A stretch of DNA of 64,000 bases from Octopus sinensis (Eukaryota). Within the stretch, counting starts at the first letter, position 1; every line of letters begins with the position of its first letter. Both the position numbers and the translations under genes were made by a program. Shown here one piece after another: positions 1,261 to 52,500 of the stretch. The notes under the pieces are model-generated. The model was not told the origin of the DNA and searched no databases. It saw nothing but the letters and a program-made list of their open reading frames with translations. The stretch spans positions 25,048,001 through 25,112,000 of the forward strand of contig NC_043013.1 of the NCBI RefSeq assembly GCF_006345805.1, in the 5' to 3' direction.

Positions 1261-1475
1261 AAGGCGGCGAGCTGGCAGAATTGTTAACATGCTGGGCAAA
1301 ATGCTTAACAGCATTTTGTCCATGTTTACATTCTGAGTTCAAATTCCACCAAGGTCAACTTTCCCTTTTATCTTTTCAGGGTCAATGAAATTAGTACCAG
1401 TCAAGTACAGGGGTCAATGTAATCAACTTGTCCCCTCTTCCAAATTTCAGCCTTTGTGCCTATAGTAGAATGGAT
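1261..1475 (+). mobile_element. tRNA-head SINE with Deu/Nin-like core, tail type A
   Basis: AAGGCGGCGAGCTGGCAGAA head, GAGTTCAAATTCC B-box, diverged GCCTTTCATCCTTTCGGGGTCGATAA-type core, tail CCTTTGTGCCTATAGTAGAA. Other type-A copies near 1120, 5040, 6240 and 27441. Confidence 0.8.
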
Positions 1476-2990
1476 CGCTAACTGGGCACCTGGAGAGGCA
1501 AGCCCATGCCGTCCAACAGCGTCGTAGGGCGCTGGACAGACGGACCCGTTAAACTGCTCGGGGTCTGGTTCGGTCCGGACCTCCAGGTGGATAAGAACTG
1601 GGAAGAGGTGACGAGCAGGGTGGCACGTCTCACCCAGAAATGGGCCGAGAGGAAGCTGTCCCTGAAAGGTCGAGCGGAGGTGGCGAATGCGTACATTGCA
1701 TCCGTCATCTATTACCGCTTGACCGTCGTCCCTTGTCCCGACCGCTGGTTGGCCAGCTGGTACGCCTGCTCTTCGACTTTTTGTGGAAGGGTCAGGTGCC
1801 ACTGGTCAGGCGATCCATCTGCTGTCAACGACCGCTGAACGGAGGCCTTGGAATGCCGTGGTTGCTGTTGCGCAGACATGCGCTCAGGCTGCGGCATCTC
1901 AAGCGCTTCCTAGACGGTGAACAGTGTGGTCGTCTTTTGTCAGACGCGATTTCCGCAGCTCGTCTCTTTGACGGAGCTGCAGACCTGGATCAACGTAGAC
2001 CGAGAAAGGCGCTTGGCACCTCGAGTGCCGTCAAGCCCTCTCCGCCGTCCACCAGGCGGGCAATGCGGTCGGTTACAGCTCCACTCTAGCGTTCTATAGA
2101 GGTTAGTGGAGGAAAAATGCGACAACGTTCTCGGGGAAACTCTAGGCGTTGAAGATGACGAACTGTGCGGTCTGTTCGGGAGGACTTTCGGGCCGGGGCC
2201 GATGGATAATTTCCAGAGGTCTCTCGCTTGGCAGTGCTACCGAGGGGCTCTGCCTGTTCGAGATAAACTCTACCGGCACGGAAGTGCCGTCAGCCGGGCC
2301 TGCCCGAGGTGTTGCCAGGACGACGAAACCGTTCTGCACGCACTCGTTCAGTGCCCGAGTATTGCTGAAATATGGGTTATGTCGAACAGCTACTGTCACG
2401 TGTAGGACGGATCCGACTATCGGCCGAATCCATAGTGAAGATTGCCCCGCCGACCTCCTTTAACAAGGAGGGCGAGGCCGTTTTCTTGTGCCTAGTGGCT
2501 GTGGCGAAAGAGGTCGTGTGGTGGACTCGTTTAAAAGGGCTAAAGACAGACACTTTCCTCTTTGGTCAAGGCCTCATCAACTTTTTCAAGTTTCACTTGA
2601 AAAGGAAGATGAGGTTAGAGAGGAAAGTGCTGTCCGATACCAAGTTTTATGAAAGGTGGGTGAATTGTGCGAGGACTGGCCTGTATAAATGGACAGTTCT
2701 CAGGTTTCGCTGTGATTTCAAAGAAAAAGGTAATGTAAAAGGAGAAGAAAGGGGACTCTCTACACCCACTTTTTTGACCAGGCTCCCGTTGGCTTTTGTA
2801 GGGTTTTTTTTCCACCAGGAACCTTTCGAAACGTCTCCCCCTTTTGGGAGTTTTTCATTGTTGAATTTTATAAGTTGTTATAAAGATTTTTACTCGATGT
2901 TTTAAAAAACGGCAAAACCCTTTGTAACCTTTCGTCCTGTCTTGTCCCTCTATGTAATCATGCGTGTCAGCCCTTGTGGCCAATAAAAAA
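1476..2990 (+). mobile_element. 5'-truncated Tx1/L1-clade LINE (ORF2 RT C-terminus plus zf-RVT), frameshifted
   Basis: Overlapping ORFs give VKLLGVWFG, WAERKLSLKGRAEVAN, FLWKG...GGLGMP and CPRCCQDDETVLHALVQC (CCHC). GC-rich, ends AATAAAAAAGAAT. Imperfect TSD AGAATGGAT/AGAATTGAT. Confidence 0.88.
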
Positions 2991-3023
2991 GAATTGATTA
3001 TTATTATTATTATTATTATTATT

Positions 3024-6900: not shown

Positions 6901-7574
6901 ATTCAGAGTGTGACTAGGCTGGCCCTTTGAAATACAGGTGCAACTCTTTTTTGCCAGCTGAGTGGACTGGAGCAATGCTAAATAAAGTGTCTTGCTCAAG
7001 GACACAACACGTCACCAGGAATTGAACTCACAGCCTTTCATTCATGAGTCAAATGCCCTAACCACTAAGCCATGCGCTTTCACTCACACACATATATATA
7101 TGTATGAAAGTGAACCTCCTTGAACTGTATTATATACTTCATAGTATATACCTTATATACCATTCATATTTTTTAAAAAACACACCAAACTCTATGGATC
7201 TTTCAACTGAAAATCTTAACTGCTCTTAATTTCAGTACAAAAACAAATTTTTTCAGTCCTTTTCTTAACAGTCCTCTTTTTCTCACACTTCCTTCCATAT
7301 GTATACAACATGGGTTTTATTTACATATATTTTTATGTATATTTATATATATATACTCATATTTTATTAATATTTTTTAAAATGTGTCGATATATATTAA
7401 TATATGTATATGCATTTTAAGTTGAATTTATAAATGTATGAGTATGATTGCCTAATTTGTCTATCAATCCACTCACAAGGCTCTGGCCAGCTCAAGGCTA
7501 TAATAGAAGACACTTGCCTAAAGTGCTATGCAGTGGGACTGAACCAGGAACCATGTGGTTAGGAAGCAAGCTTC

Positions 7575-7965
7575 CTATTTCTTTATTGCCCGCAGGGGGC
7601 TAAACAGAGAGGGGACAAACAAGGAGAAAGGGATTAAGTCGATTACATCGACCCCAGTGTGTAACTGGTACTTAATTTATCGATCCCAAAAGGATGAAAG
7701 GCAAAGTCGACCTCGGCAGAATTTGAACTCAGAACGTAACGGAAGATGAAATACCTATTTCTTTACTACCCACAGGGGGCTAAACACAGAGAGGACAAAC
7801 AAGGACAGACAAACGGATTAAGTCGATTATATCGACTCCAGTGCATAACTGGTACTTATTTAATCGACCCCGAAAGGATGAAAGGCAAAGTGACCTCAGC
7901 AGAATTTGAACTCAGAATGTAACGGCAGACAAAATACTGCTAAGCATTTCACCCGGCATGCTAAG
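7575..7965 (-). mobile_element. Head-to-tail dimer of Deu/Nin-like SINE, tail type B
   Basis: Two units joined at GATGAAATAC|CTATTTCTTTAC (about 7754), sitting inside the head of a different tRNA-SINE (7445-7574). Confidence 0.85.
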
Positions 7966-8230: not shown

Positions 8231-8450
8231 TTTGGCAGAAACGTTAGCAAGCCGGGCGAAATGCTTAGCGGTATTTCGTCTGCGTTACGTTGTGAGTTCA
8301 AATTCCGCCGAGGTCGACTTTGCCTTTAATCCTTTTGGGGTCGATAAATTAAGTACCAGTTACGCACTGGGGTCGATGTAATTGACTTAATACCTATGTC
8401 TGTCCTTGTTTGTCCCCTCTGTGTTTAGCCCCTTGTGGGTAATAAAGAAA
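8231..8450 (+). mobile_element. Deu/Nin-like SINE, tail type B, with TSD
   Basis: Near-consensus body ending AGCCCCTTGTGGGTAATAAAGAAA, flanked by a TTGGTATT direct repeat. Confidence 0.85.
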
Positions 8451-10427
8451 TTGGTATTAGCCACATCAATTTTAACACAGGGCCTGCAATTGTCAGGAGC
8501 CCTGTCTCTCCTCTACTTAATAGCTTACTTGACACAAATGAAGTTCTGCTTATATTACACTCACCATGTGCTTTACTTGTCATTAAAAGCATTGCAAGAA
8601 GGAGATGAAGGTGGGGACAATGCTGATCCCCACTCCTACTGGGGCACATCTATGAGGGGATCCTAATTTTCATGAAACATATGTCTATTAAAGTGGAATG
8701 CCAATAGTGTTTTTGGCCCTGTACTCTGAGAACCCTTGCTAAACTATACTGCTAGGAAGTGTGGGTTCAATTTGAGAATAGTCAGTGGAGGTCCTCTACT
8801 CTACAAAAGCTAAAGGTTAATGTTTTATGTTTTGTGCAGCACGCCAGTCCCAGCCAAAAAACATTGATTGCTTGAGGCTCTCTATCATTAGTCACAAATT
8901 CATTATAATGTTCTCCACTCAAGCGTACGTGCAGAACCCCATTTGAACAAATTTTAACTGGCTGAATTTGCCACTATCATTTTTTTTTTTTTTTTTTTGT
9001 AATTTAAATGTATCAATACATAAAAGAAATTTTTTTACCCTAAATTTGCAAAATGTTACCAACAACTGTGAATTGAAACACTAAATACAACACAAAAAGC
9101 AATTAGTAACAGGTGTAAACATATACGGATATCGATAGGAGATACAAAGTTGACGAGGGCGAAGTCTACAAATTTTACATCATGAAATACAAAGGTCTTT
9201 TGCCGTCATTTCAAAGTGGTAACTGAATATTTCATAACGGAATAATTTCTTCTTAAATATATCGCCATGTCATCAGAAATATATGATGTAAGTTTTTTAA
9301 TGGTTTCAGTTTCAATTTTTTACTTTACCATTTACAGTAATTAATTTTAAAACATTTTATTATGCTTTTTTTTTACACCCTTCGCTGTTTATTTTAATCC
9401 ATGTGGATTAAAACGAATTTTTCAGAATAAACAACATGAACTGGAGCAAATCTTGCACTCCAAAATTTCCTTTAACGTCAATTCTAAGAGGTTGATGACA
9501 TTAAACTTGGGCATTTTGTCGAAAGAATGTCTAAACTTCTGATCGCAGACTATTTCGTTTAAAAGAATTTAAGAATATATGTGAGAGAAATCAAAGTGCT
9601 TTAAGTTTATTTTCCCTTTTCCTTTAAATTATCAGAATTTCGCTCAAATATAATTTCTCATAGTAATAACCTAACTGTGCCGCTACACGTAAAATATACT
9701 TTTATATCTTAAGTAACAGATACTGATAAAAGTTGTGACCACTTCTCTTTTAATTATATCTGTTATAATCAGTAACATTGCTGTATGTCTTGATTCTATA
9801 TATAATACTTTGATTAAGTCATTTTTCTTTTTTCGTCTTGTCCTTAATATTAGAAACGAACTTAATGTCGAAAAATTAATACAAAATTTACATATCTTCT
9901 AATTAAAAATTACAGCAGAGACAAATTGTAAAAGTTGTGGCACTAAATGAAATGTTGAAATCCACTGAACTTCGCCTTTTTTCGTTCGACAGATAATTTC
10001 GCATTTCAACACTTCTTTCTCCTTGCTTAAATCTTCCTCAACAAGTTATAAAGATTTAGTTTAACCACTCCCTTTTTTTTTGTTTTTTTTTACTAAAACA
10101 TTCACCAGAACAAAATATGAAAAGTATTAAAGTGGCCTTTAAACGCCCTAGCTTTTTTCTTTCTTTTTTTTTTTAAATATTGTTAGTTTTTGAATAACTT
10201 TTAAATGTTACACACCCACTTTTTTTCCCCTTTAAACATTTATAAGACATATAGAAACCAATTTCTGAAATAACTAACTTTTAAGCAGTTATAAGAAAGA
10301 TCGAATTAACAACACATCACACTCTCTGATGATATTGACTCTCGAAGCTCAAAAGGAGCCAGCGCTCGATCGATTAGAAATAGCAGTCAAATCATCCGGA
10401 ACAACTAGTAAAGATCACATTACTCAC

Positions 10428-20871: not shown

Positions 20872-21946
20872 CTAGCAGAGATATCCGGCGTTGCTCGGGA
20901 TTAAAATGGTATCGTTTGTATATAATATATTACAGTTATGTTGAAACAGGTGATATGGGAAAGAGTAGCTTTGACAACAAAACATTTGGGGAGTAAATGC
21001 TGAGCTAATTCGACTAAGCATTATGCTATGTGTCCGTTTGGAGTATTTCGGGCCCCAACCTGTCATGGAAAATTGGGAGTGGAGGTTATGTGATTTTTGA
21101 ACGCACCAAAAAGCTGTCAGTTGATATACTCTCTTTTGCAGCAGTCAGTGCTGTCTAACACGATCCATCATCTGAAATTTTAACACCGCTTTCGGGTTCG
21201 TTGTCCTACATCACGCATAAAGTAAATTTGGAGGAACTGTGGTTGTTCATTTGTGGGTAACATGGAACCTATGTGGTGATAGACTTGCTATTGAACTTTG
21301 ACGTCGGCGTAAATTCATGTTTATCTTCTTAGAGGCACCAAACGATGTCATTTGAAATGCAGAGTTGTATTGTCTGATATTGTTCAATAAATCCTTTGAC
21401 TGGATGGAAGTGCCTTCTAGAAGATCCATAAGAGTTTGGGAAGGAGCTAATAGTGCTGGCAATGTTACCTGACCGCCTGAGCAGCACATACCATTTGTTC
21501 TATTTGAAAATTTTAAAGTTCCACAGAAACGACAATTTGTGTTTAGCACACCAATTTGGACAGAGTTATCATTTTTATAAAAATGGGATGGATCATATCT
21601 GAAAACATCTTCACGAGTTGTGAAGAACGAATTTGTACGTAGTCTGTTTCTGAGAGCTATTCTATTGGACCTCTGTCTAATCATTAAAACATTGATTTAA
21701 TTGATCCAGCATTAAAGTGCTGCAACATGCATTTGCTGATCTTGAGAAAATCTCATCTCGCTTCTCTCTTCTGACTCGCGCCTTTGGTTTTCTACAATCA
21801 TCCTTGCTTTATATTTTGTTTCTGAGAGATTACGTCTTTTCTGTGTTTCTCTCGCCCATTCTGTAAAAATTTATTTGAAGAGAGCAGAAGAGAAAGTGAA
21901 AAGGACAGAGAAAGAAAAGATGTTTGTGCGTCAATATGAAATGGAC

Positions 21947-22267: not shown

Positions 22268-22804
22268 ACAGATTTCTTTCAAACTGAAAGTATTACCTCA
22301 CATTACAATTGAGACATCATGCTGAAATAGTGTACGAGATAAGAGATTGCATATGGCAAAAAATTGTAAATTTTTGTGGCCCATAGCACTGCATAGACGT
22401 TGGTTCTTGTATTTGACGCCTGTTACTTTATTTTATTTCGAGTTTATGTATATATGTATGTATAAGCCAATGGGGGAGAGCTCTAAATGGTAGGTAGAGG
22501 TAGCTAGACCTGGTAGAAATAACAGCCAAATCTCCCTCAAAACATCCTACTGTCTTAATCCGACAATTCTGCCTATTATGTAGTTTTAATGATAAACTGT
22601 AACTAAAGATTAAGATTATTAATCCCCAAATTTCAAGCGTTTTAATAGCAATTAATTTTCTCTTTTTTTTTTTTTTTGCTTAATTAAAATGGTTGCCTTT
22701 TCCTCGTAGTTTTTTTTATGTCAGGTGTAAAGGTGAAGAGGGTTAACTTGAACGGGGTTAAGTAATAGAGATGTTTGGTGATTGTATGTGGTTGTTACTT
22801 TTCA

Positions 22805-23408
22805 CCAGCATCGGTTGCTCGCTCCAGCGCCATCCATTTTCGGGGCCGGTCGATTCGGCAGGTAAGTTGTTACACACTCCTGAGCGAATTTCCGACTTCC
22901 GTCGCACCGTCCTGCTGTCTATATCGACCGACACCCTTTCGGGGATCTAATGCCGAAGCCGGTCGTTCGGTTCATCCCACATCACCAGATCTGCTTACCA
23001 AAAGTGGCCCACTTGGCACCGTGCATTCGTCACGTCGCAATGGCTGTGATATACGGCTGCCTCCGATAGGGAGAGGAGAGGCCCGTTTCGTCCGTTTTGA
23101 GTTCGAGAGTAGATCGAGGCTGTCAATGTCCCCTGGGCCTCCAATCATTCGCTTTACCGGGCGGAATTGCGAGTCGTTCTCCCGCTAGCGCCAGCTATCC
23201 TGAGGGAAACTTTGGAGGGAACCTGCTACTAGACGGCTTGATTGGTCTTTTGCCTCCACACCCGGTTGCGATGATCGATTTGCACGTCAGAGGTGCTTCG
23301 GACTTCCAGAGTTTCCTCTGGCTTCGTCCTGACCGGGCGTGGATCGCCATCTTTCGGATCCCCAGCCGCCTGTTACACCTGAGTCGGAACGGGAAAGCGA
23401 CGATGCGC
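22805..23408 (-). pseudogene. Isolated 28S rRNA fragment (about 600 bp)
   Basis: Reverse complement of conserved LSU motifs: CGCTCCAGCGCCATCCATTTTC, GTTGTTACACACTCC, CTGCTTACCAAAAGTGGCCCAC, CTATCCTGAGGGAAACTT, GATCGATTTGCACGTCAGA. No flanking rDNA. Confidence 0.92.
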
Positions 23409-23660: not shown

Positions 23661-24115
23661 GTTCGTAAAATACCGAATAGTTTATAACATATTGAATGGT
23701 TCATACAGTCAGCTATTGTTTAGAATTCGTCATCAATTATCCCCTGATTGAATGATCATCCTTTTGTTGGTAGAATGTATATATTTATCAATACTTATAT
23801 ATTATTAAAAATATCTTGTAGTAATTAGCACCTTATTATATGTCCTAAGCTCGTTTTAATTGGATCGATAAATAAATTTTTGTTGAGTATTGCAGTCAAT
23901 CTAATCAACCATACACTGCCTACATTGAGGTTTTGTGCCTAATTAAGAAATGAGCATTTATAAATAATTAATTAAAACTTATTATAACAAAGGTAACATT
24001 GAAATGTAATCTATAATACAGAAGAGATATCTTTCTTTGAACAGTTACCAAGTTAATCTTCAGAAGTGCATCAGCACATCACTGCCATACATACATGCAT
24101 GCATACCTACCAACC

Positions 24116-24345
24116 TATTTCTTTACTACCCACAAGGGGCTAAACACAGAGGGGACAAACAAGGACAGATAAACAGATTAAGTCGATTACATCGACCCCA
24201 GTATGTAACTGGTACTTAATTTATCGACCCCGAAAGGATGAAAGGCAAAGTCGACCTCGGCGGAATTTGAACTCAGAATGCAGCAGTGAACGAAATAACA
24301 CAAAGCATTTCGCCCGGCTTGCTAACGTTTCTGCCAGCTCGCCAC
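24116..24345 (-). mobile_element. Full-length Deu/Nin-like SINE, tail type B
   Basis: Complete head to tail, flanked by a CCTACCAACC duplication beside a (CTAC)n tract. Confidence 0.85.
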
Positions 24346-24504: not shown

Positions 24505-25915
24505 ACCGAGAATGAAGGACTTCAGCCAGTTATGGAGAGCATCCTTCACACACACAGCATAGAGTTTTACCATGAGTCGTTTGTGTGGCACAGAGTTGAA
24601 GGCTTTAGCAAAATCAAGGTAGACAGTATCCACCCATGAGCCACCATCAGTAACTCGGGTAATGTCCTAAAAAAACTCGATGAGTTGACTACAGCAGTTT
24701 GAGTCAGGGATAAAACCAAATTGTGAGGGTCGAATAAGGCAGTGAGAGCTCCAAAAGTTCCAGAGTGTTTCTCTGCCGCAGGACTTCATCAGTTTTGCGA
24801 TGCAGCTTGTAAGGCTGACTGGACGGTAGTTGACAGGTAATATGCGATCACCTTTTTTGAAGAGGAACAACTCTGGCAATTTTCCAGTGCTCTGGAGTGA
24901 CAAAGTTAGAATTGAAAAAAGGAAGAGAGCTGGTGCAATAGAAAGAACCTACCATGTTTGAGAAGCAAATAAGTAACACCATCAAGACCAGGAGAGGCAT
25001 AGTTGCGCTTGTTCTTGAGGTGACGTCACAGCATTGTGTGTGTGAATTTCACAGATGTTACGGAACTAGATTTCAGAGTTGGTGAAGAAGGTACATTGGG
25101 ATTTTCAGCAGTAAAAATACGAGCATAGCATTCAGCAATAAGCTCAGCACATTCCTTGGGGGTCATCATTCAGTTATCCGACCAGTGTGGGGATTGTGAA
25201 GAGGGTCCACTGGGGAGTGAGGTCTCTGTTTTGAACGCATATATTTCCAGAACACGTTGCTGTCAGGGCTAGTTGATATACGTCGTTCAAACTCAAGCAC
25301 TGCCTTTTTTGTCACTTTCTTGAGACGGTTGGATGATCTGTTGCATCTTCTTCTGTTCTCATTTGTTCTATGCTATCTGTATTTCTGTTCAGCTTCACGA
25401 CGATCTTTCCTGGCAAGTCGAACTACTGCAGTCTTCCAAATTGCACTGTTTTTATTTCTAGAGTGTTTGCACGGTAGTGACGCTTCACCTGCTGCCCAGA
25501 TTGCACTGAGGATATTTTGGAAAACAGTATTGACGTCCTCTGAATCGTAAAATTCAAACCAGTTGGACGGCGTAACTTCTTACGGTAACAGTTCCAGTCT
25601 GCTTTGTTCCAGTCAAAGCGAGTGGTTTCAAGATGGTAGCGCTTCTTGTTTCTGCCTATAAGAGACAGATTGGTAATGATCACAGCATGATCGGAGTCTC
25701 CTAGAAGTTCTTTCGTCGTAACATTGATAACAGTTTCAGGAGTGGTAGTAAAGAGCAGGTCCAAAGTGTTATTACCTTTTGTGGGGAATGTGACTGCCTG
25801 GGACCAGTTTGCATCCAGCACTACATCAAGGAAATCGTCTGCGCTTTGCGGCCAACTAAAAGTATCCCATTCAATTTCAGGGTAATTGAAGTCACCAGTA
25901 ATGAAAATATACGTG
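24505..25915 (-). mobile_element. CR1/Jockey-group LINE fragment (APE endonuclease plus RT N-half)
   Basis: ITGDFNYPEIEW, NTLDLLFT, GDSDH; NYRPVSLTSCIAKLM, QFGF, VYLDFAKAFNSVPH. Frameshifted. A possible ORF1 remnant lies at about 26600-27060. Confidence 0.9.
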
Positions 25916-26590: not shown

Positions 26591-27440
26591 ACACACACAC
26601 ACACAGTGAAACAGACAAATTGAATTTTAAAAATTGCACAGACGGTAACAATTTGAAAAATCGCATACAAGTGGTGGAGGAGGGTGGTGGTGGGTGCAGT
26701 GGCAGCGGTGTACGATGTGTGTTTGGCTTTGGCTGGTGTTGCATGTACGAATTGCATGTTTTGTCCCTGGTATATGATGATGATGATGGGTCAGTTGTAG
26801 TATTCAGAGAAAATGAAGAACGTGGAGAGCTGGACAGTGAAGGGCTTTTCATTGTGGAGTTTAATAGGTCATCAATTGTGCTAGTTTTGAAGAGTAGCCG
26901 TACTGGTGGTCATACTTTTAGTTCAATAGTGCGTTTTTCTAGAGAATTCCCTTGAGAATTTTATGACCAGATTCATCAGTAAACATTCTGGACTCTTTTA
27001 CATTATGTATTTTTGTAGTTTGTTCTTGTTTTGAGAAGGAACCTAACTTGAAGCAACTTTTTGCAGATCAATTTTTAGACACTATTTTCTAAACCTGGCA
27101 AAGTATGTAGTGGGTGCAAATTTCGATTTTGCACCTGCTAAAAATTTTAGGAGATGCGCTTGCACCCCTTGCACCTCCTGCTCTCGGGCCCTTGGACGGA
27201 GTTGATTGTTTACAAAAGCCTCTGTCCTTCGAAGTTATCTCTTTACTTCTCATCAATCGTGTTGTGACCAGCATCCTAGAACCTTTGCATCAATCTCTGT
27301 GCTCAATCCCTTTTCCTTTTTCCTTCCAGATGATAGCTCTGTAGCCTAGTTGATATCCCCTACACCTCTCTCCCTGAAATATACTCCCTCTTCATGTCTT
27401 TCTTGAAAACGTTGACTTGCAACACTTTAAACAGAATATT

Positions 27441-28485
27441 CTTTTCTACTCTTGGCATAAGGTCCGGAATTTTGGGAGAAGGGGGTCAATCGATTAGATC
27501 GAACGCAGTACGCAACTAGTACTTAATTTATTGACCCCGAGAAGATGAAAGGCTAAGTCGACCTCGGCGGAATTTAGCCATGAACCCAGAATGTAAAGAC
27601 AGACGAAATACCTATTTCTTTACTACCCACAAGGGGCTAAACACAGAGAGGACAAACAAGGAGAAACGGATTAAGTCGAATATATCGACCCAGTTCGTAA
27701 CTGGTACTTATTTAATCGACCCTGAAAGGATGAAAAGCAAAGTCGACCTCGGCGAAATTTGAACTCAGAACGTAACGGCAGACGAAATACCGCTAAGCAT
27801 TTCGCCCGGCGTGCTAACGTGTCTGCCAGCTCGCCGCCCTGCGGCAGACGAAATACCTATTTCTTCACTACCCACAAGGGGCTAAACACAGAGAGGACAA
27901 ACAAGGACAAACGGATTAAGTCGAATATATCGACCCAGTTCGTAACTGGTACTTATTTAATCGACCCTGAAAGGATGAAAAGCAAAGTCGACCTCGGCGA
28001 AATTTGAACTCAGAACGTAACGGCAGACGAAATACCGCTAAGCATTTCGCCCGGCGTGCTAACGTGTCTGCCAGCTCGCCGCCCTGCGGCAGACGAAATA
28101 CCTATTTCTTCACTACCCACAAGGGGCTAAACACGGAGAGGACAAACAAGGGCAGACAAACGGATTAAGTCGATTATATCGACCCAGTGTTTCACTGGTA
28201 CTTAATTTATCGACCCCGAGAGGATGAAAGGCAAAGTCAACCTCGGCGGCGGCAGACGAAATACCTATTTCTTTACTACCCACATGGGACTAAACACAGA
28301 GAGGACAAACAAGGACAGACAAACGGATTAAGTCGATTATATCGACCCCAGTGCGTAACTGGTACTTATTTAATCGACCCTGAAAAGATGAAAGGCAAAG
28401 TCGACCTCGGCGGAATTTGATCTCAGAACGTAACGGCAGACGAAATACCGCTAAGCATTTCGCCCGGCATGCTAACGTGTCTGCC
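27441..28485 (-). repeat. Tandem array of Deu/Nin-like SINEs (one tail-A host plus four tail-B units; two units have a 245-bp period)
   Basis: The junction AGACGAAATAC|CTATTTC starts at 27601, 27846, 28091 and 28254. Confidence 0.9.
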
Positions 28486-29057
28486 TTTTTAAACGAAATA
28501 TTAAGGGCATCAAACTCACAGGTCTTCGAGGGCCTGCTAAAGGGTCCTGCCTGGTTAACCAATCTCAGTGAATAAAAAAAAATCAACAAACATGCTAAAT
28601 AAACAATTTAATAATTGTATTTGAAGATTGGCATTTCGTGAAAACTTTTATTTCGTGTCATCCATACCCTTCTACTCTTGCAGAAAGTAAAATTCACACC
28701 TGTTTGACTTTTTGCTTTAAAATGATTGAAATATCACTTCCGTCAAAATATATATCAATTTTTTTGTGTCTTTAATTAACCAACAACTGTCATTCAGTTA
28801 TTCAAATTTTTTTCATCTTTACATTACGACCAATTTGCTTTAAGATGAAAATAAGTAAATGGATGAATAAATGAATGACTAAATAAATACATAAAAAGAA
28901 TGAATGACTAAATAAATAAATAAAAAGAATGAATGACAGAAAGAACGAATGAAGTAGTTTCGGTGAAGAAATGTAAGTTAGTTTAAACGAATAAGCAAAA
29001 CCAGAATAATGGAATAGAAACTTATATATTCTGGAATGCTAGATTCTATAAACGAGT

Positions 29058-32519: not shown

Positions 32520-34285
32520 ATTATAATAATGAAATTATTGTGTAAAGTGCTCAGATGCACTACAACTTATCAAAGGTACATGTACAGTACATAGGATTAT
32601 GTACAAATGTCAGGAAAGTGAACAGTGTATGGGTCATGATATACATGTGTGCATGCGTATGGAGGGTGGGAATATCAGGTGTAATGTTAGCAAATTTCAG
32701 GAAGCATGGAGGTTTTAAAGAATGAAATGTCTCAGCAGCTAGCAACTGATGCAAGTAGTTTGTTCCATGCTTCAGTATCCCTGAATGTGAAAAAATATTT
32801 CCAAAAATCATGGGAGCATGCTGTTTTCTGACTTTGTAGTCATTCCCACTTGTGTTACGCTCATGGAGCTCAAAAAGGTGCTCAAGGTGGTTATTGGCAC
32901 AATGGTTAATAATTTAGTGGGCGCTTGCTAAGTCAGTTGCCAGACTATGCCCAGGGAAGCAAAGCGTTCAGAGTATGGTAAATGCCTGATGCACATCTCT
33001 GAACAGTTTCCAGGAGGTCAATGTTCTGAGCAAGGTAGGGGTTCCAGACTAGTGATGCAAGTTCCAAGTGTAGCCACACCATAGCCATATACAGCCTTAA
33101 ATAGATAGCTGGAGAGGGCTGACAAAGGTCTTGCTGAGTGATGCTAAGACACGCTTGGCCTTCTTGTTAATTTTAGAGATGTGCTTTGTCCAACGCAAAT
33201 TGCTGCTGACAGTAATGCCCAGGTCATGTTCACAAGAAGACTTCATGATATTAGTGTTGTGGAGAAGGCATGTGGACACTTGGATTTTCCTCCCAAAATG
33301 CATTGTGGTACACTTGTCCAAAGCCAGCTTTAGTTGCCTATCCATAATCCATTGTTGCATTGTGTCTAGATCTGATTGCAGGAAAGACCTATAGTGTTCA
33401 GGATCTGTCCTTTTTATCTCAAGGTATAGCTTGATGTCATCTGCATATTTCTGCACTGTGACATTCTTTAAGTTGGCATCTATGTCATTAATGTATGCAA
33501 CAAACAAAAGGGGACCAAAAACAGATCCTTGTGGTACACCAGATGACATCTCATAGGGTGAAGAATGCTGTCCTAGAACCACGACTACCTCTTTTCGGCT
33601 GAGAATGAAGGACTCCAGCTAGTTAAAAAGATCATCTTTCACATCCATTGCAGAGTTTTGCCATAAGTCTTTTGTGTGGCACAGAATTAAAAGCTTTAGC
33701 AAAGTCAAGGTAAACAACATCAACCCATGAGCAGCCATCAGTGACCTGGTGGTGTCTTCAAGAAACTTGATAAGTTGACCACAGCAGCTGGACTTAGAGA
33801 TAAATCCAAATTGCAAGGGCCGGATAAGGCTGTGAGAATTCTAGAAGTTCCAGAGCATTTCTCTGACACAAGATTCCATCAGTTTGGCAATGCAGCTAGT
33901 AGGACTGACTGGACCATAGTTGACAGGCGATATGCAGTCATCATTTTTGAACAGAGGAATGAGACTGGCATTTTTCCACTGCTCCAGAGTAGCACCATTG
34001 TTAAGACAGAATTCAAAGAAGAGTGAAAGCTGGTGTAGAAGAAAGTACCTACTACGTTTGAGAAGCAGGTACATAACACCATCAAGACCAGGAGAGGCAA
34101 AATTTGCTCTTATTCTTAAGGTGATGTCGCAGCTTTGCAGGTGTAAATTCTTTAGTTGTTATAGAATTTGTTGTCAGAGGTGGTGGAGATGGTACATTTT
34201 GGTTTTCAACAGTAAAAATGTCTGCATAGCATTCAGCAGTGAGTTCTGCGCATACTTTGGGGTCATCAGTAAGTTAGAAAACTGA
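32520..34285 (-). mobile_element. CR1/Jockey-group LINE, RT to 3' end, in LAMTOR2 intron 1
   Basis: SGVPQGSVFGPLLFVAYINDI, KYADDIKL, DLGITVSSNLRW. Alignable by eye to the 24.5-25.2 kb copy. (ATT)n-like 3' tail near 32520. Confidence 0.9.
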
Positions 34286-45006: not shown

Positions 45007-45636
45007 GTGGCCTATCAATACCACATGCTCAGATACACAGATACACATTTACAAAGACCTGCAAATGCATTGACAAAGGAAGTATGAAGTTGCTGATGTA
45101 ACTGTTGATGGTTTTAGAATCTTGCTGTAATATGTAGACAGGATAGGTGTCTGATAGCAATGGAAGAAGTTTACTTCTCAGCCACATGGTTCTGGGTTTT
45201 GTCCCCCTGCATGGCAATTGGGCAAGGGTCCTCTACATACCCAGGCAGACCAAAGCCATCTCAGTGAATTTGATAGACAGAAACTAAAATGAGTTCATCA
45301 TATGTGTGTGTATGTGTTACAAATTGTCTCCTTGCCTGAACTTCATGTACTGGTTGTAAATGAGTGTCACTGTCATGCAAGCAGTGTCTTGTATTTCCAA
45401 TCTTCCATGGAAACATGTCTGATCATGGATGAATATTTGATGACAGGAAGAGCATCCCCCTGTAGAAAATCTACCTCTACAAATTCTGTCCAACCCAAGC
45501 AAGTATAGAAAAGTGAACTTTAAAATGATATGTATATATATATTTTATATTGGAATCTGTATGTAGCTTTATGGTTGAGCTTACTTCACAATCACAAGGT
45601 TCATGGTTCCACTCCACTATACAGTATCTTTGAAAA

Positions 45637-45785
45637 TTCCGCTGAGGTCGACTTTGCCATTTATCCTTTCGGGGTCGATAAATAAAGTACCAGTTTCGCA
45701 CTGGGTCAATGTAATCGACTTAATCCCTTTGTCTGTCCTTGTTTGTCCCCTCTATGTTTAGACCCTTGTGGGTAGTAAAGAAGTA
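45637..45785 (+). mobile_element. 5'-truncated tail-B SINE with 19-bp TSD
   Basis: TATACAGTATCTTTGAAAA at 45618-45636 and 45786-45804. Inserted in a degenerate tRNA-SINE head. Confidence 0.85.
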
Positions 45786-49532: not shown

Positions 49533-52500
49533 TTCTAGGCTAATTCTACAAAGAAAAATGCCACATTTCTCAAGAAGTTATTAAAACACCAGAGTTTCAA
49601 AATAAGTATTTATAAAAACAGATTACTTAACCTATTGAGACGATCGTTGTAGTATGATGGGAACCAACTAATATATATATAATCATCATCATCATCATCA
49701 TCTATTTCTTTACTACCCACAAGGAGCTAAACACAGAGGGGACAATCAAGGACAGACAAACGGATGAAGTCGGTTACATCGACCCCAGTGCGTAACTGGT
49801 ACTTAATTTATCGACCCCGAAAGGATGAAAGGCAAAGTCGACCTCGGCGGAATTTGAACTCAGAATGTAACGTCAGACGAAATATGGCTACGCATTTCGC
49901 CCGGCGTGCTAACGTTTCTGCTTTCCATGCTAGCATGGGTTGGACGGTTCAACTTGGGTCTGGGAAGCCAGAAGGCTGCACCAGGCCCAGTCTGATCTGG
50001 CAGTGTTTCTACAGCTGGATGCCCTTCCTAACGCCAACCACTCCGTGAGTGTAGTGAGTGCTTTTTACATGCCACCGGCACAGGTGCCAGACGAGGCTGG
50101 CAAATGGCCACGATCGGATGGTGCTTTTTACGTGCCACTGGCACGGAGACCAGACGAAGCTGGCAATGGCCACGGTCGGATGGTGCTTTTTACGTGCCAA
50201 TGCAGTAATAAACTGCCGATGCTACAATAAACATGGATATGTCACCCAAATAGTTGCATACCAAGCTATACACACTCTAACAATAACCAATTAAATGTGA
50301 AGCCTGAGAAATAGAACTTTGAGCGATTTATCATCATTTTAATGCTTGCTTTTCCAGGTTTGCATGAGTCAGACACAGTTTATTGAGGCAGATTTTCTCT
50401 AGCCAGATGCCCTTCACCTGTTTCCAGGTAAGGCAATATTTCCCCACGACCAGACATATTTTCACAGAAGATTGGAAACAAAGGACACTGCCTGAAAACA
50501 CACACATAATGAGGAATGCTGGTGCTATGTAAAAAGCATCCAGTACACTCTGTGAAGTGGTTGGCATTAGGAAAGGCATCCAGTCATAGAAACCATGTCA
50601 AAGCAGACAAGAAAGCCTGGTGCAGCTCTCCAGCCTTGCCATCTCCTGTCAAAACTGTCCAACCAATGCCAGCATGGAAAACGGCTATTTAATGATGACA
50701 ATGATGATGATGGGTTCCTTTCAGTTTCTGTCCACCATATATATATATATATATATATATATGTTGATGTTTTATGTGTGTTTATAAATTCATTATAGCA
50801 GACTCAACATAAATACATACAGTAATCCCTCACCATATCACAGTTCACCTATCATGGTTTATTATTTAAGCTTATGTCACTTCCTCCATGGTGTTGTTTT
50901 GCATTTATAATAAAATATATACAAATTATAAAAATAATAAAAACAAAAATATACAGTACAGTACTGTTTCTACTTCTTGGGGGTGGGTGGAACGTAATAC
51001 CCACAATAATCGAGAGATTACTGCAAGTGTTTTGTGCCACCTTATCATGACATGGTTGTAAATGAGTGTGACTATCATACAAGCAGTGTCATTCATTTCC
51101 AATATACTGTGAGAACATGTCTGACCATTAGGAAATATTACTTTACTTGGAAACAAGTGAGGACAAGCAACAGGATAGAAACCAGCTGCAGAAAATATGC
51201 CTCAATAAACTCCACCTGATCCATGCAAGCATGGAACAGTGGACATATGATGATGATTGGTCTTAAAGAGTGATTTACATTCAGACTTCTTTAGTCTATC
51301 AAGCAAATCTAAAGCTGATTTTGTTAGAATTCTTCAATTTTCTAGACAATAATTACTTCTTTATAATGAAAGAATTCAACAGACAAACACCAATTTGTTG
51401 CTCAAAGCTTCTAATCAGCGGTATTTAGAACCAAGCATTTTTTTAAAGTAATGCAGTGAATGAAAAAATCTTAATTAACTAAACAAATGGTGACAAACTT
51501 ATTCAGTTTGAAACAAATATTTTTTAAAAAATTAAACAGTTGAAAACAATATAAGATAAAAAGAAAATTCTTTACACATGAATCTATCAAAATAAACAAA
51601 ATGCATCAAAAAATGTAACCTGCGAAGAACAGGTTTTAATGGAATTCAAAACAACAAAAATCTAATCAAAGGTAAATGAAAAATGCTTAACATTTATTTC
51701 TTTATAATGCCATGCAATATTGTGTATCAATAGCAGACCAATATTACAGAAATATCCTGCATATAACAGATTTGTTTCTTTAATTTTAGAAATCAACACA
51801 AATACATTTACAAAAGCAGTTTTTGTAAAGCTTGATGTGGGGGAAAGCAACCATAAAGCTGGAGATTCAGTTCCATAAAGATTTATTGGTAGAGAAATAA
51901 AATTTACAAATTCCAAGATGACAAAACAAAGTTTAAACAATTTACGTAGTTTATTTCCTATAATTCTTCATATGAAAGTGAACATTTTGAAGGACAGTGC
52001 TGTGCTGCTATTTCAGTTTGGTTCATGTTATTTCGTTTTTACATTTGGTTCTTTCTTGCTTTAAGTGTCATATGATCATCTGTTTTTGAGGGACAGCTCC
52101 ACACTGAATATAATAACATCACAATTAATTACCTGAAGATTAATCACGTTGATAAAAATTTTCAATAAATTTGTTCCTTGTAAAATTTCCAACACTATAT
52201 ATATAATAATAATAATATTCATAGAAGACACCAACAGCTGAAGTACACCTTTTTGGTAACAATTCATCATAGCACACCCACCATTTATCACAAAGGAATG
52301 TACCTTAGTAGGGTATATTATTTTCCACATAAATACAATACATTTGATACTCAGGTAAATAATAATTATTATCTTTTTAAAATATAAATTCAGTGCAAAT
52401 AGCTGCGCATTCAGGTTTTGGTAAACATCCAGTATAAGTATCTGGAAATTATTTCCCTCTCTTTAAATAACTCACTGTATCCTTTGAAAGAATACTGACA

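What the first reader, a model, noticed from the sequence alone, without database searches (positions are those of the whole stretch)
2930..2995. A SINE family shares its 3' tail with the Tx1-clade LINE: candidate Tx1-dependent SINE
Seen: the LINE ends GTCCTGTCTTGTCCCTCTATGT...CAGCCCTTGTGGCCAATAAAAAAGAAT, and tail-B SINEs end GTCCTTGTTTGTCCCCTCTGTGTTTAGCCCCTTGTGGGTAATAAAGAAAT (8402-8451; also near 7575, 24116, 27611, 45735, 49702). The same blocks occur in the same order at both termini. Known: SINEs borrow the 3' end of their partner LINE; common partners are L2, CR1 and RTE, and Tx1 elements often have sequence-specific APE endonucleases. Inference: this abundant, young SINE is mobilised by a Tx1-clade LINE, an uncommon pairing that would also explain its target bias.
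Basis: partly seen in the sequence, partly recalled or inferred. Interest (0 to 1): 0.75.

Follow-up and report, generated by a model that had tools for sequence, protein, structure and literature searches.

The report
SINE with a Tx1-like hairpin tail
An abundant short repeat (SINE) in this likely octopus genome ends in the same hairpin tail as a large group of L1/Tx1-like LINE jumping genes and likely borrows their copying enzyme, probably from a sister lineage whose last 27 bases match it exactly rather than from the LINE in this window.

Summary
The tail match is real (score 44 against shuffles 20±4, 0 of 2000 as high), but it is a feature of a whole clade, and the window's LINE is a poor candidate partner.

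The LINE at 1480-2996 is a 5'-truncated copy of a young APE-RT-zinc-finger family (A) that ends in (ATT)n (54 of 56 copies). About two dozen related lineages end in a pyrimidine tract, a short hairpin with compensatory changes (29 of 30 hand-anchored ends) and AATAAA. Family A ranks 15th of 18 for likeness to tail B (longest exact match 9 nt). Lineage E matches the last 27 nt exactly and, like the SINE, has no repeat tail and 12-17-nt duplications; lineages F/H match the preceding 24 nt.

The SINE lands at GGT(A), often in its own head. Neither A nor E prefers that site, and no LINE with the whole tail was found. L1-group placement is shown; Tx1 proper rests on architecture and targeting, not on a tree with named references. 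The scan noted this pairing before on other DNA of this genome.

The parts
1480..2996 (+). 5'-truncated, frameshifted copy of LINE family A (ORF2 from about residue 738, 3' UTR and tail)
   Evidence: 97-98% identical to other genomic copies, 1754 first-look candidates; tblastn to a full ORF2; full-length copies about 5.9-6.0 kb with ORF1 and ORF2
2934..2993 (+). LINE tail: pyrimidine tract, hairpin (stem 2970-2972/2978-2980, loop CTTGT), AATAAA at 2982-2987
2997..3023 (+). (ATT)n tail and target of family A
   Evidence: 54 of 56 family-A ends
1261..1477 (+). older SINE of the same body with tail A; the LINE begins where its (ATT)n end would lie
8233..8451 (+). tail-B SINE: A-box-like 8233-8247 and B-box-like 8294-8306 (by eye), body, tail with hairpin 8428-8440
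7574..7964 (-). two tail-B SINEs joined at the GGTATTTC site of the SINE head
24113..24336 (-). tail-B SINE inside an (AGGT)n tract, 12-nt flanking repeat
27435..28487 (-). array of four tail-B units, each followed by the head-site sequence, ending in a tail-A unit
45634..45784 (+). 5'-truncated tail-B SINE
49704..49921 (-). tail-B SINE

Best explanation
The tail-B SINE carries the 3' hairpin tail of a clade of L1/Tx1-like LINEs and is likely copied in trans by their ORF2 enzyme, most likely that of lineage E or an unsampled close sister rather than the window's (ATT)n family. Shown: clade-wide tail with a covarying hairpin; 27-nt exact terminal match to E; the same end form (GAAAT, one extra base, 12-21-nt target duplication, no poly(A) or repeat tail); strong SINE preference for GGT(A), including a site in its own head. 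Inferred: ORF2 binds the hairpin next to AATAAA, nicks the target (usually T just upstream of the duplication) and primes reverse transcription a few bases past GAAAT. Inferred, weaker: the few RNA bases past GAAAT pair with the nicked target, so each SINE subfamily's own 3' end steers where it lands, and copies nested in the SINE head reinforce that site.
For: Tail versus shuffles, 0 of 2000. Hairpin in 29 of 30 LINE ends against a shuffled mean of 7 (max 15), with C-G, T-A, G-C and A-T pairs at the same positions; SINE and E have the same stem and loop. Longest exact match to the window's tail B: E 27 nt (median 22 over 14 copies), F and H 24 nt, family A 9 nt. An E-like copy (L448) has the C-variant end with the AAGAAA extension also seen in C-variant SINEs. 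SINE duplications in 37 of 67 full-length non-nested copies against 25 of 600 mismatched pairs; 16 non-microsatellite cases start at GGT, 12-21 nt. E duplications of 17, 16 and 12 nt in 3 clear cases of 12 copies with an end. Subfamily-target link in loci picked by upstream letters only: T-variant 11 of 17 followed by GGT and 1 by AAGAA; C-variant 8 of 15 followed by AAGAA and 0 by GGT, p=7e-5. Other RT clades score 24-29.
Against: E copies do not share the SINE's target (1 of 14 followed by GGT). E lacks the first half of tail B, which matches F/H. No LINE with the whole tail turned up in six pattern searches (149 loci examined). On the semi-global score, lineages K, B, C and F tie with E (60-63), so E is singled out only by the exact terminal match and end form. 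T upstream of the duplication in 12 of 16 sites (p=5e-4) lies outside anything the RNA could pair with, so part of the bias is likely endonuclease preference. Hairpin anchors were set by hand. No trans-mobilisation or RNA-end data.
Confidence: 0.7

Rival explanations
1. An unsampled or extinct LINE of the same clade, with both halves of tail B and a GGTA-specific endonuclease, is the dedicated partner; the target bias is the enzyme's.
For: Many sampled lineages are target-specific. Both tail halves look ancestral on the tree, since family A has weak versions of both. T upstream of the duplication in 12 of 16. Searches scored only the top candidates, for example 150 of 24,043 for zf-RVT. Unchecked scan notes report a LINE at a fixed site in a SINE that shares its tail.
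Against: None among 191 LINE 3' regions in 24 clusters plus 40 further ends, nor in six targeted pattern searches. Two SINE variants with two targets would need two such families.
Confidence: 0.3
2. The window's (ATT)n family A is the partner.
For: Significant tail match, the same CTTGT loop, and a young, abundant family.
Against: Rank 15 of 18, 9-nt longest match, 8-nt gap, and a different end and target.
Confidence: 0.07
3. Tail B was captured once from this clade by template switch, but the SINE is now moved by another or a sequence-relaxed machinery, so the tail is a relic.
For: The same SINE body carries other tails (A, C) with no significant primary match to any sampled LINE (tail A z at most 1.5), so tails are exchanged.
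Against: Tail B is conserved to the last base in young copies; duplication length and end form match E.
Confidence: 0.1

Closest known systems
SINEU with Tx1-Mar, crocodilians (Kojima 2015, PMC4494074; passages read)
   Same: SINE inferred to be moved by Tx1-type LINEs; target preference; tandem copies around a duplication.
   Different: SINEU has snRNA heads and poly(A); partnership was inferred from a shared target, and no LINE sharing the SINEU-1 3' end was found. Here a sequence and hairpin tail is shared but the target is not.
Stringent SINE/LINE pairs (Ohshima 2013, PMC3747384; passages and part 1 of 2 of the tables section read)
   Same: Shared 3' tail with a stem-loop showing compensatory changes; L1-clade cases exist (maize/sorghum ZmSINE2/3 with LINE1-1_ZM, Chlamydomonas SINEX-3 with L1-1_CR).
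   Different: Table 1 lists no animal L1 or Tx1 partner. Here the tail is spread over about two dozen lineages and looks like a mosaic of two.
Kibi/Koshi, Keno and Tx1L target-specific Tx1 families (as summarised in PMC4494074)
   Same: Related lineages here end in (ATT)n, (ATCT)n, (CT)n, a SINE head or at a U1 snRNA gene.
   Different: Relationship to those named families is untested; the closest named protein is an Argonauta hypothetical protein at 69%.
Mollusc conserved-domain SINEs (PMC4824008, PMC11481361, PMC4758252; term-search passages)
   Same: One SINE body with exchangeable LINE-derived tails.
   Different: Reported partners are CR1, CR1-Zenon, L2 and Nimb; 'Tx1' occurs 0 times in PMC4824008 and PMC11481361 main texts.

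Membership tests
L1/Tx1 group of non-LTR retrotransposons (window LINE family) | ORF2 with APE endonuclease, RT and C-terminal zinc-binding domain | tested here: met
   PF03372, PF00078 and PF13966 all over cut-off in full copies
L1/Tx1 group of non-LTR retrotransposons (window LINE family) | closer to L1 than to other clades with solved structures | tested here: met
   L1 ORF2p E=5e-49 over residues 4-867; R2 E=3e-21; only L1 and R2 were available to compare
Tx1 clade proper | RT groups with named Tx1 families in a tree | not testable with these tools
   No named Tx1 protein among 240 listed hits or in 10 clusters; the tree (quick method) has only unnamed outgroups
Tx1 clade proper | target-sequence preference (PMC4494074) | tested here: met
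   (ATT)n 54 of 56; (ATCT)n 14 of 14 and 12 of 13; fixed SINE-head site 22 of 22
Tx1 clade proper | ORF1 with CCHC knuckle rather than vertebrate-L1 ORF1 (recalled criterion) | tested here: met
   One CX2CX4HX4C in 5 of 5 ORF1s; Pfam zf-CCHC weak in family A (E about 0.08), over cut-off in 3 of 4 sisters; no vertebrate-L1 ORF1 family hit
Stringent SINE/LINE pair: tail B with window family A | near-identical 3' terminus | tested here: not met
   9-nt longest exact match, 8-nt gap, rank 15 of 18
Stringent SINE/LINE pair: tail B with window family A | same end form and target | tested here: not met
   (ATT)n versus GGT(A) with ~15-nt duplication
Stringent SINE/LINE pair: tail B with lineage E | near-identical 3' terminus and stem-loop | tested here: met
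   27-nt exact terminal match, same stem and loop; upstream half not shared
Stringent SINE/LINE pair: tail B with lineage E | same end form and duplication length | tested here: met
   3 clear E duplications of 12-17 nt among 12 copies; SINE 12-21 nt
Stringent SINE/LINE pair: tail B with lineage E | same target preference | tested here: not met
   1 of 14 E ends followed by GGT, against 14 of 19 unselected T-variant SINE ends; background 1.5%
Stringent SINE/LINE pair: tail B with lineage E | overlapping period of activity | tested here: inconclusive
   Nearest-neighbour identity E 98.5%, unselected SINE B 95.7% (80-99%) in small samples
Stringent SINE/LINE pair: tail B with lineage E | trans-mobilisation depends on the tail | not testable with these tools
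   needs a cell assay
tRNA-derived SINE | tRNA-related head with A and B boxes | tested here: inconclusive
   Box-like motifs by eye (recalled consensus); no ARAGORN or Rfam tRNA hit
MetaSINE superfamily | 66-bp Meta central domain | not tested
   Resemblance is recalled only; the paper's alignment figures are not held

The most novel reading that the evidence does not exclude
An animal L1/Tx1-type clade uses stringent 3'-hairpin recognition, and this SINE steers its own landing: the few bases after its tail pair with the nicked DNA, so each subfamily programs its own target, including a site in its own head, while borrowing the enzyme of a lineage with no such preference.
Probability: 0.3. 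Interest if true: 0.75.

Novelty: new variant of a known kind. Interest (0 to 1): 0.5.

Why it matters
Ohshima 2013 (PMC3747384) leaves open whether animal L1-clade enzymes recognise a specific 3' RNA structure or only poly(A), and lists tail-sharing L1-clade pairs only in plants and an alga. About two dozen young lineages with one covarying hairpin, different targets and a tail-sharing SINE make that question testable in one genome. They also allow a test of whether the endonuclease or the RNA's 3' end sets the target. The pairing itself is an ordinary kind of SINE/LINE relationship.

Tried and rejected
Search for a LINE carrying the whole tail B or the SINE's targets, six patterns. Tail plus (AGGT)n: 15 of 15 SINE. 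A-run upstream: 30 of 106 examined, no ORF2 hit. C-type stem plus head site: 27 of 27 examined, none with a LINE end upstream. C-type stem plus A-box: 16 SINE and 1 odd element. One-T-shorter tail: 30 of 141 examined, 28 SINE or SINE fragment and 2 E-like LINEs. Non-SINE upstream letters: 30 of 326 examined, no LINE end directly upstream.

The L244 follow-up was swamped by a simple repeat in the query. The idea that tail A is family A's passenger is not supported by sequence (z at most 1.5), and a CR1-like family also ends in (ATT)n. ORF1 likeness to ZCCHC3-labelled proteins was weak, and no paper held both terms. The protein atlas gave no result. No RNA holder was listed, and only contigs were offered, which cannot show RNA ends, so no reads were laid.

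Clusters 11 and 22 (misplaced end) and 12, 14, 18, 20 (no end found) were left out of the ranking. Six short or unaligned rows fell out of the tree (L348, P0082, P0108, P0109, P0120, P0121), and the careful tree did not finish. Repbase and Dfam could not be searched; the one supplement searched held only family counts.

Full report
Setting. The window lies at C17:25,048,001-25,112,000 of a 2.72-Gb genome. The closest named protein to the LINE is from Argonauta hians (69%), so the host is likely an octopus (inference).

Observation. The window LINE's last 60 nt align to tail B with semi-global score 44 against 20.1±4.2 for 2000 dinucleotide shuffles, none as high. The best window along the LINE copy is its terminus (46 against at most 27 elsewhere). 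The match needs an 8-nt gap, and its longest exact stretch is 9 nt.

The LINE. 1480-2996 is a truncated copy of a young family (A): 97-98% to other copies, 1754 first-look candidates. Full copies are about 5.9-6.0 kb with a ~600-aa ORF1 and a ~1145-aa ORF2 carrying APE, RT and zf-RVT. The best solved relative is L1 ORF2p (E=5e-49; R2 3e-21). ORF1 has one CCHC knuckle. 54 of 56 ends run into (ATT)n, and many 5' junctions lie in ATT-rich sequence, by eye. No named Tx1 sequence could be fetched, so Tx1 proper rests on architecture and target specificity.

A clade, not one family. Protein and zf-RVT searches gave 191 3' regions in 24 clusters at 88% identity, plus 40 further ends. These are a floor: only 150 of 24,043 zf-RVT candidates were scored. 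In a quick tree the sampled lineages form one group with the Argonauta protein (SH-aLRT 98). E, J and K form one branch (100), F, H, N and M another (96), and A lies outside both. Most ends have a pyrimidine tract, a short hairpin and an A-rich end. A stem was found in 29 of 30 hand-anchored ends against a shuffled mean of 7 (max 15), with C-G, T-A, G-C and A-T pairs exchanged at the same positions. Targets differ by lineage: (ATT)n; (ATCT)n (14 of 14, 12 of 13); (CT)n; and one fixed site in another SINE's head (22 of 22).

Which lineage fits tail B. Of 18 clusters with a usable end, 14 score higher than family A. Lineage E matches the last 27 nt exactly (median 22 over 14 copies); F and H match the preceding 24 nt exactly but have another hairpin. 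The two halves meet at the clade's conserved CT(A)TGT motif. Tail B is therefore either a mosaic or a copy of an ancestral or unsampled tail (inference). An E-like copy, L448, shares the C-variant end and its AAGAAA extension with C-variant SINEs. The 3' regions of 14 RT copies from other clades (CR1-like, RTE-like and others, labelled by eye) score 24-29; the single score of 90 is a flanking SINE.

Insertion signature. 37 of 67 full-length, non-nested SINE copies have a flanking repeat, against 25 of 600 mismatched pairs; 11 of the 37 sit in (AGGT)n tracts and say little. Sixteen others start at GGT, are 12-21 nt long and follow GAAAT by at most one base. In loci not chosen with SINE queries, 14 of 19 T-variant ends are followed by GGT (background 1.5%), 12 of them by the SINE's own head sequence. 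E copies are about 5.1 kb, end in GAAAT plus one base with no repeat tail, and show clear duplications of 17, 16 and 12 nt in 3 of 12 copies. Only 1 of 14 E ends is followed by GGT. So E matches the end form but not the target, and A matches neither.

Target follows SINE variant. In loci chosen only by upstream letters, T-variant ends were followed by GGT in 11 of 17 and by AAGAA in 1; C-variant ends were followed by AAGAA in 8 of 15 and by GGT in none (p=7e-5). Searches fixed on the two head sites gave the same split (T in 26 of 27 at GGTATTTC, C in 15 of 17 at the A-box site). This fits priming by the RNA's last bases, or two different enzymes. T upstream of the duplication in 12 of 16 sites (p=5e-4) points to an endonuclease share as well. 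Six pattern searches for a LINE with the whole tail or these targets found none among 149 loci examined.

Mechanism. Target-primed reverse transcription by a partner ORF2 is established knowledge for SINEs. That ORF2 of this clade reads the hairpin is inferred from covariation and from the SINE keeping it to the last base. That E or a close sister is the enzyme source is inferred (about 45% for E itself). Steering by the RNA end is the weakest step.

Literature. Nine searches were run. I read passages of PMC13282606, PMC4758252, PMC3747384 (plus part 1 of its tables section), PMC4494074, PMC4824008, PMC5786205 and PMC11481361. SINEU/Tx1-Mar is the only Tx1-mobilised SINE found; it was inferred from targets and has no shared tail. 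Ohshima's table has L1-clade tail pairs only in grasses and Chlamydomonas. The 2026 Octopus vulgaris annotation lists 13 recently active L1-Tx1 families and 893 unclassified SINE families, and the word 'partner' does not occur in it. Unchecked scan notes on other windows of this genome reach similar conclusions; they are not independent support, and I did not find the LINE some of them place inside this SINE.

Verdict. The feature is real and the clade-level partnership is likely. The window's family is probably not the partner. It is a new variant of a known kind; interest 0.5.

Noticed in passing
L300:2228-2391: A LINE of this clade ends directly at position 1 of a complete U1 snRNA (Rfam 125 bits): either U1-gene targeting or a U1-headed neighbour; one copy seen.
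   Followed up: partly
L354-L379, L380-L407 (family H): Young lineage whose ends sit at one fixed site in the head of a different abundant SINE (22 of 22; CORE-like label recalled). It shares the first 24 nt of tail B.
   Followed up: partly
L346, L404, L410, L416, L418: Lineage ending in (CT)n tracts, reminiscent of Kibi.
   Followed up: no
L098-L110, L156-L175: Three related families ending in (ATCT)n, 99% nearest-neighbour identity, several with open ORF2.
   Followed up: partly
L301-L306, L315-L322, L323-L330: Lineages followed by a fixed downstream sequence and often spaced about 5.4-5.7 kb apart, suggesting head-to-tail stacking.
   Followed up: no
window 1261-1477 and other tail-A/C copies: Older tails A and C on the same SINE body; tail A folds into the same CTTGT-loop hairpin (3 copies) yet has no significant sequence match to sampled LINE tails.
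   Followed up: partly
L244:1500-1850 (- strand): Short non-SINE element with a clade-type tail sitting at the SINE A-box site; no close copy found.
   Followed up: partly
window 22796-23360 (-): Two fragments of eukaryotic large-subunit rRNA (Rfam).
   Followed up: partly
window 33097-33618 (-) and 25426-25890 (-): RT fragment (RVT_1) and endonuclease fragment of another LINE clade; the RT motif resembles the (ATT)n-ending CR1-like family.
   Followed up: partly
window 21247-21696 (-): Open frame that looks Helitron-like by recall; untested.
   Followed up: no
L033, L038, L046: Family A copies stacked head to tail inside the (ATT)n tail of the previous copy.
   Followed up: partly
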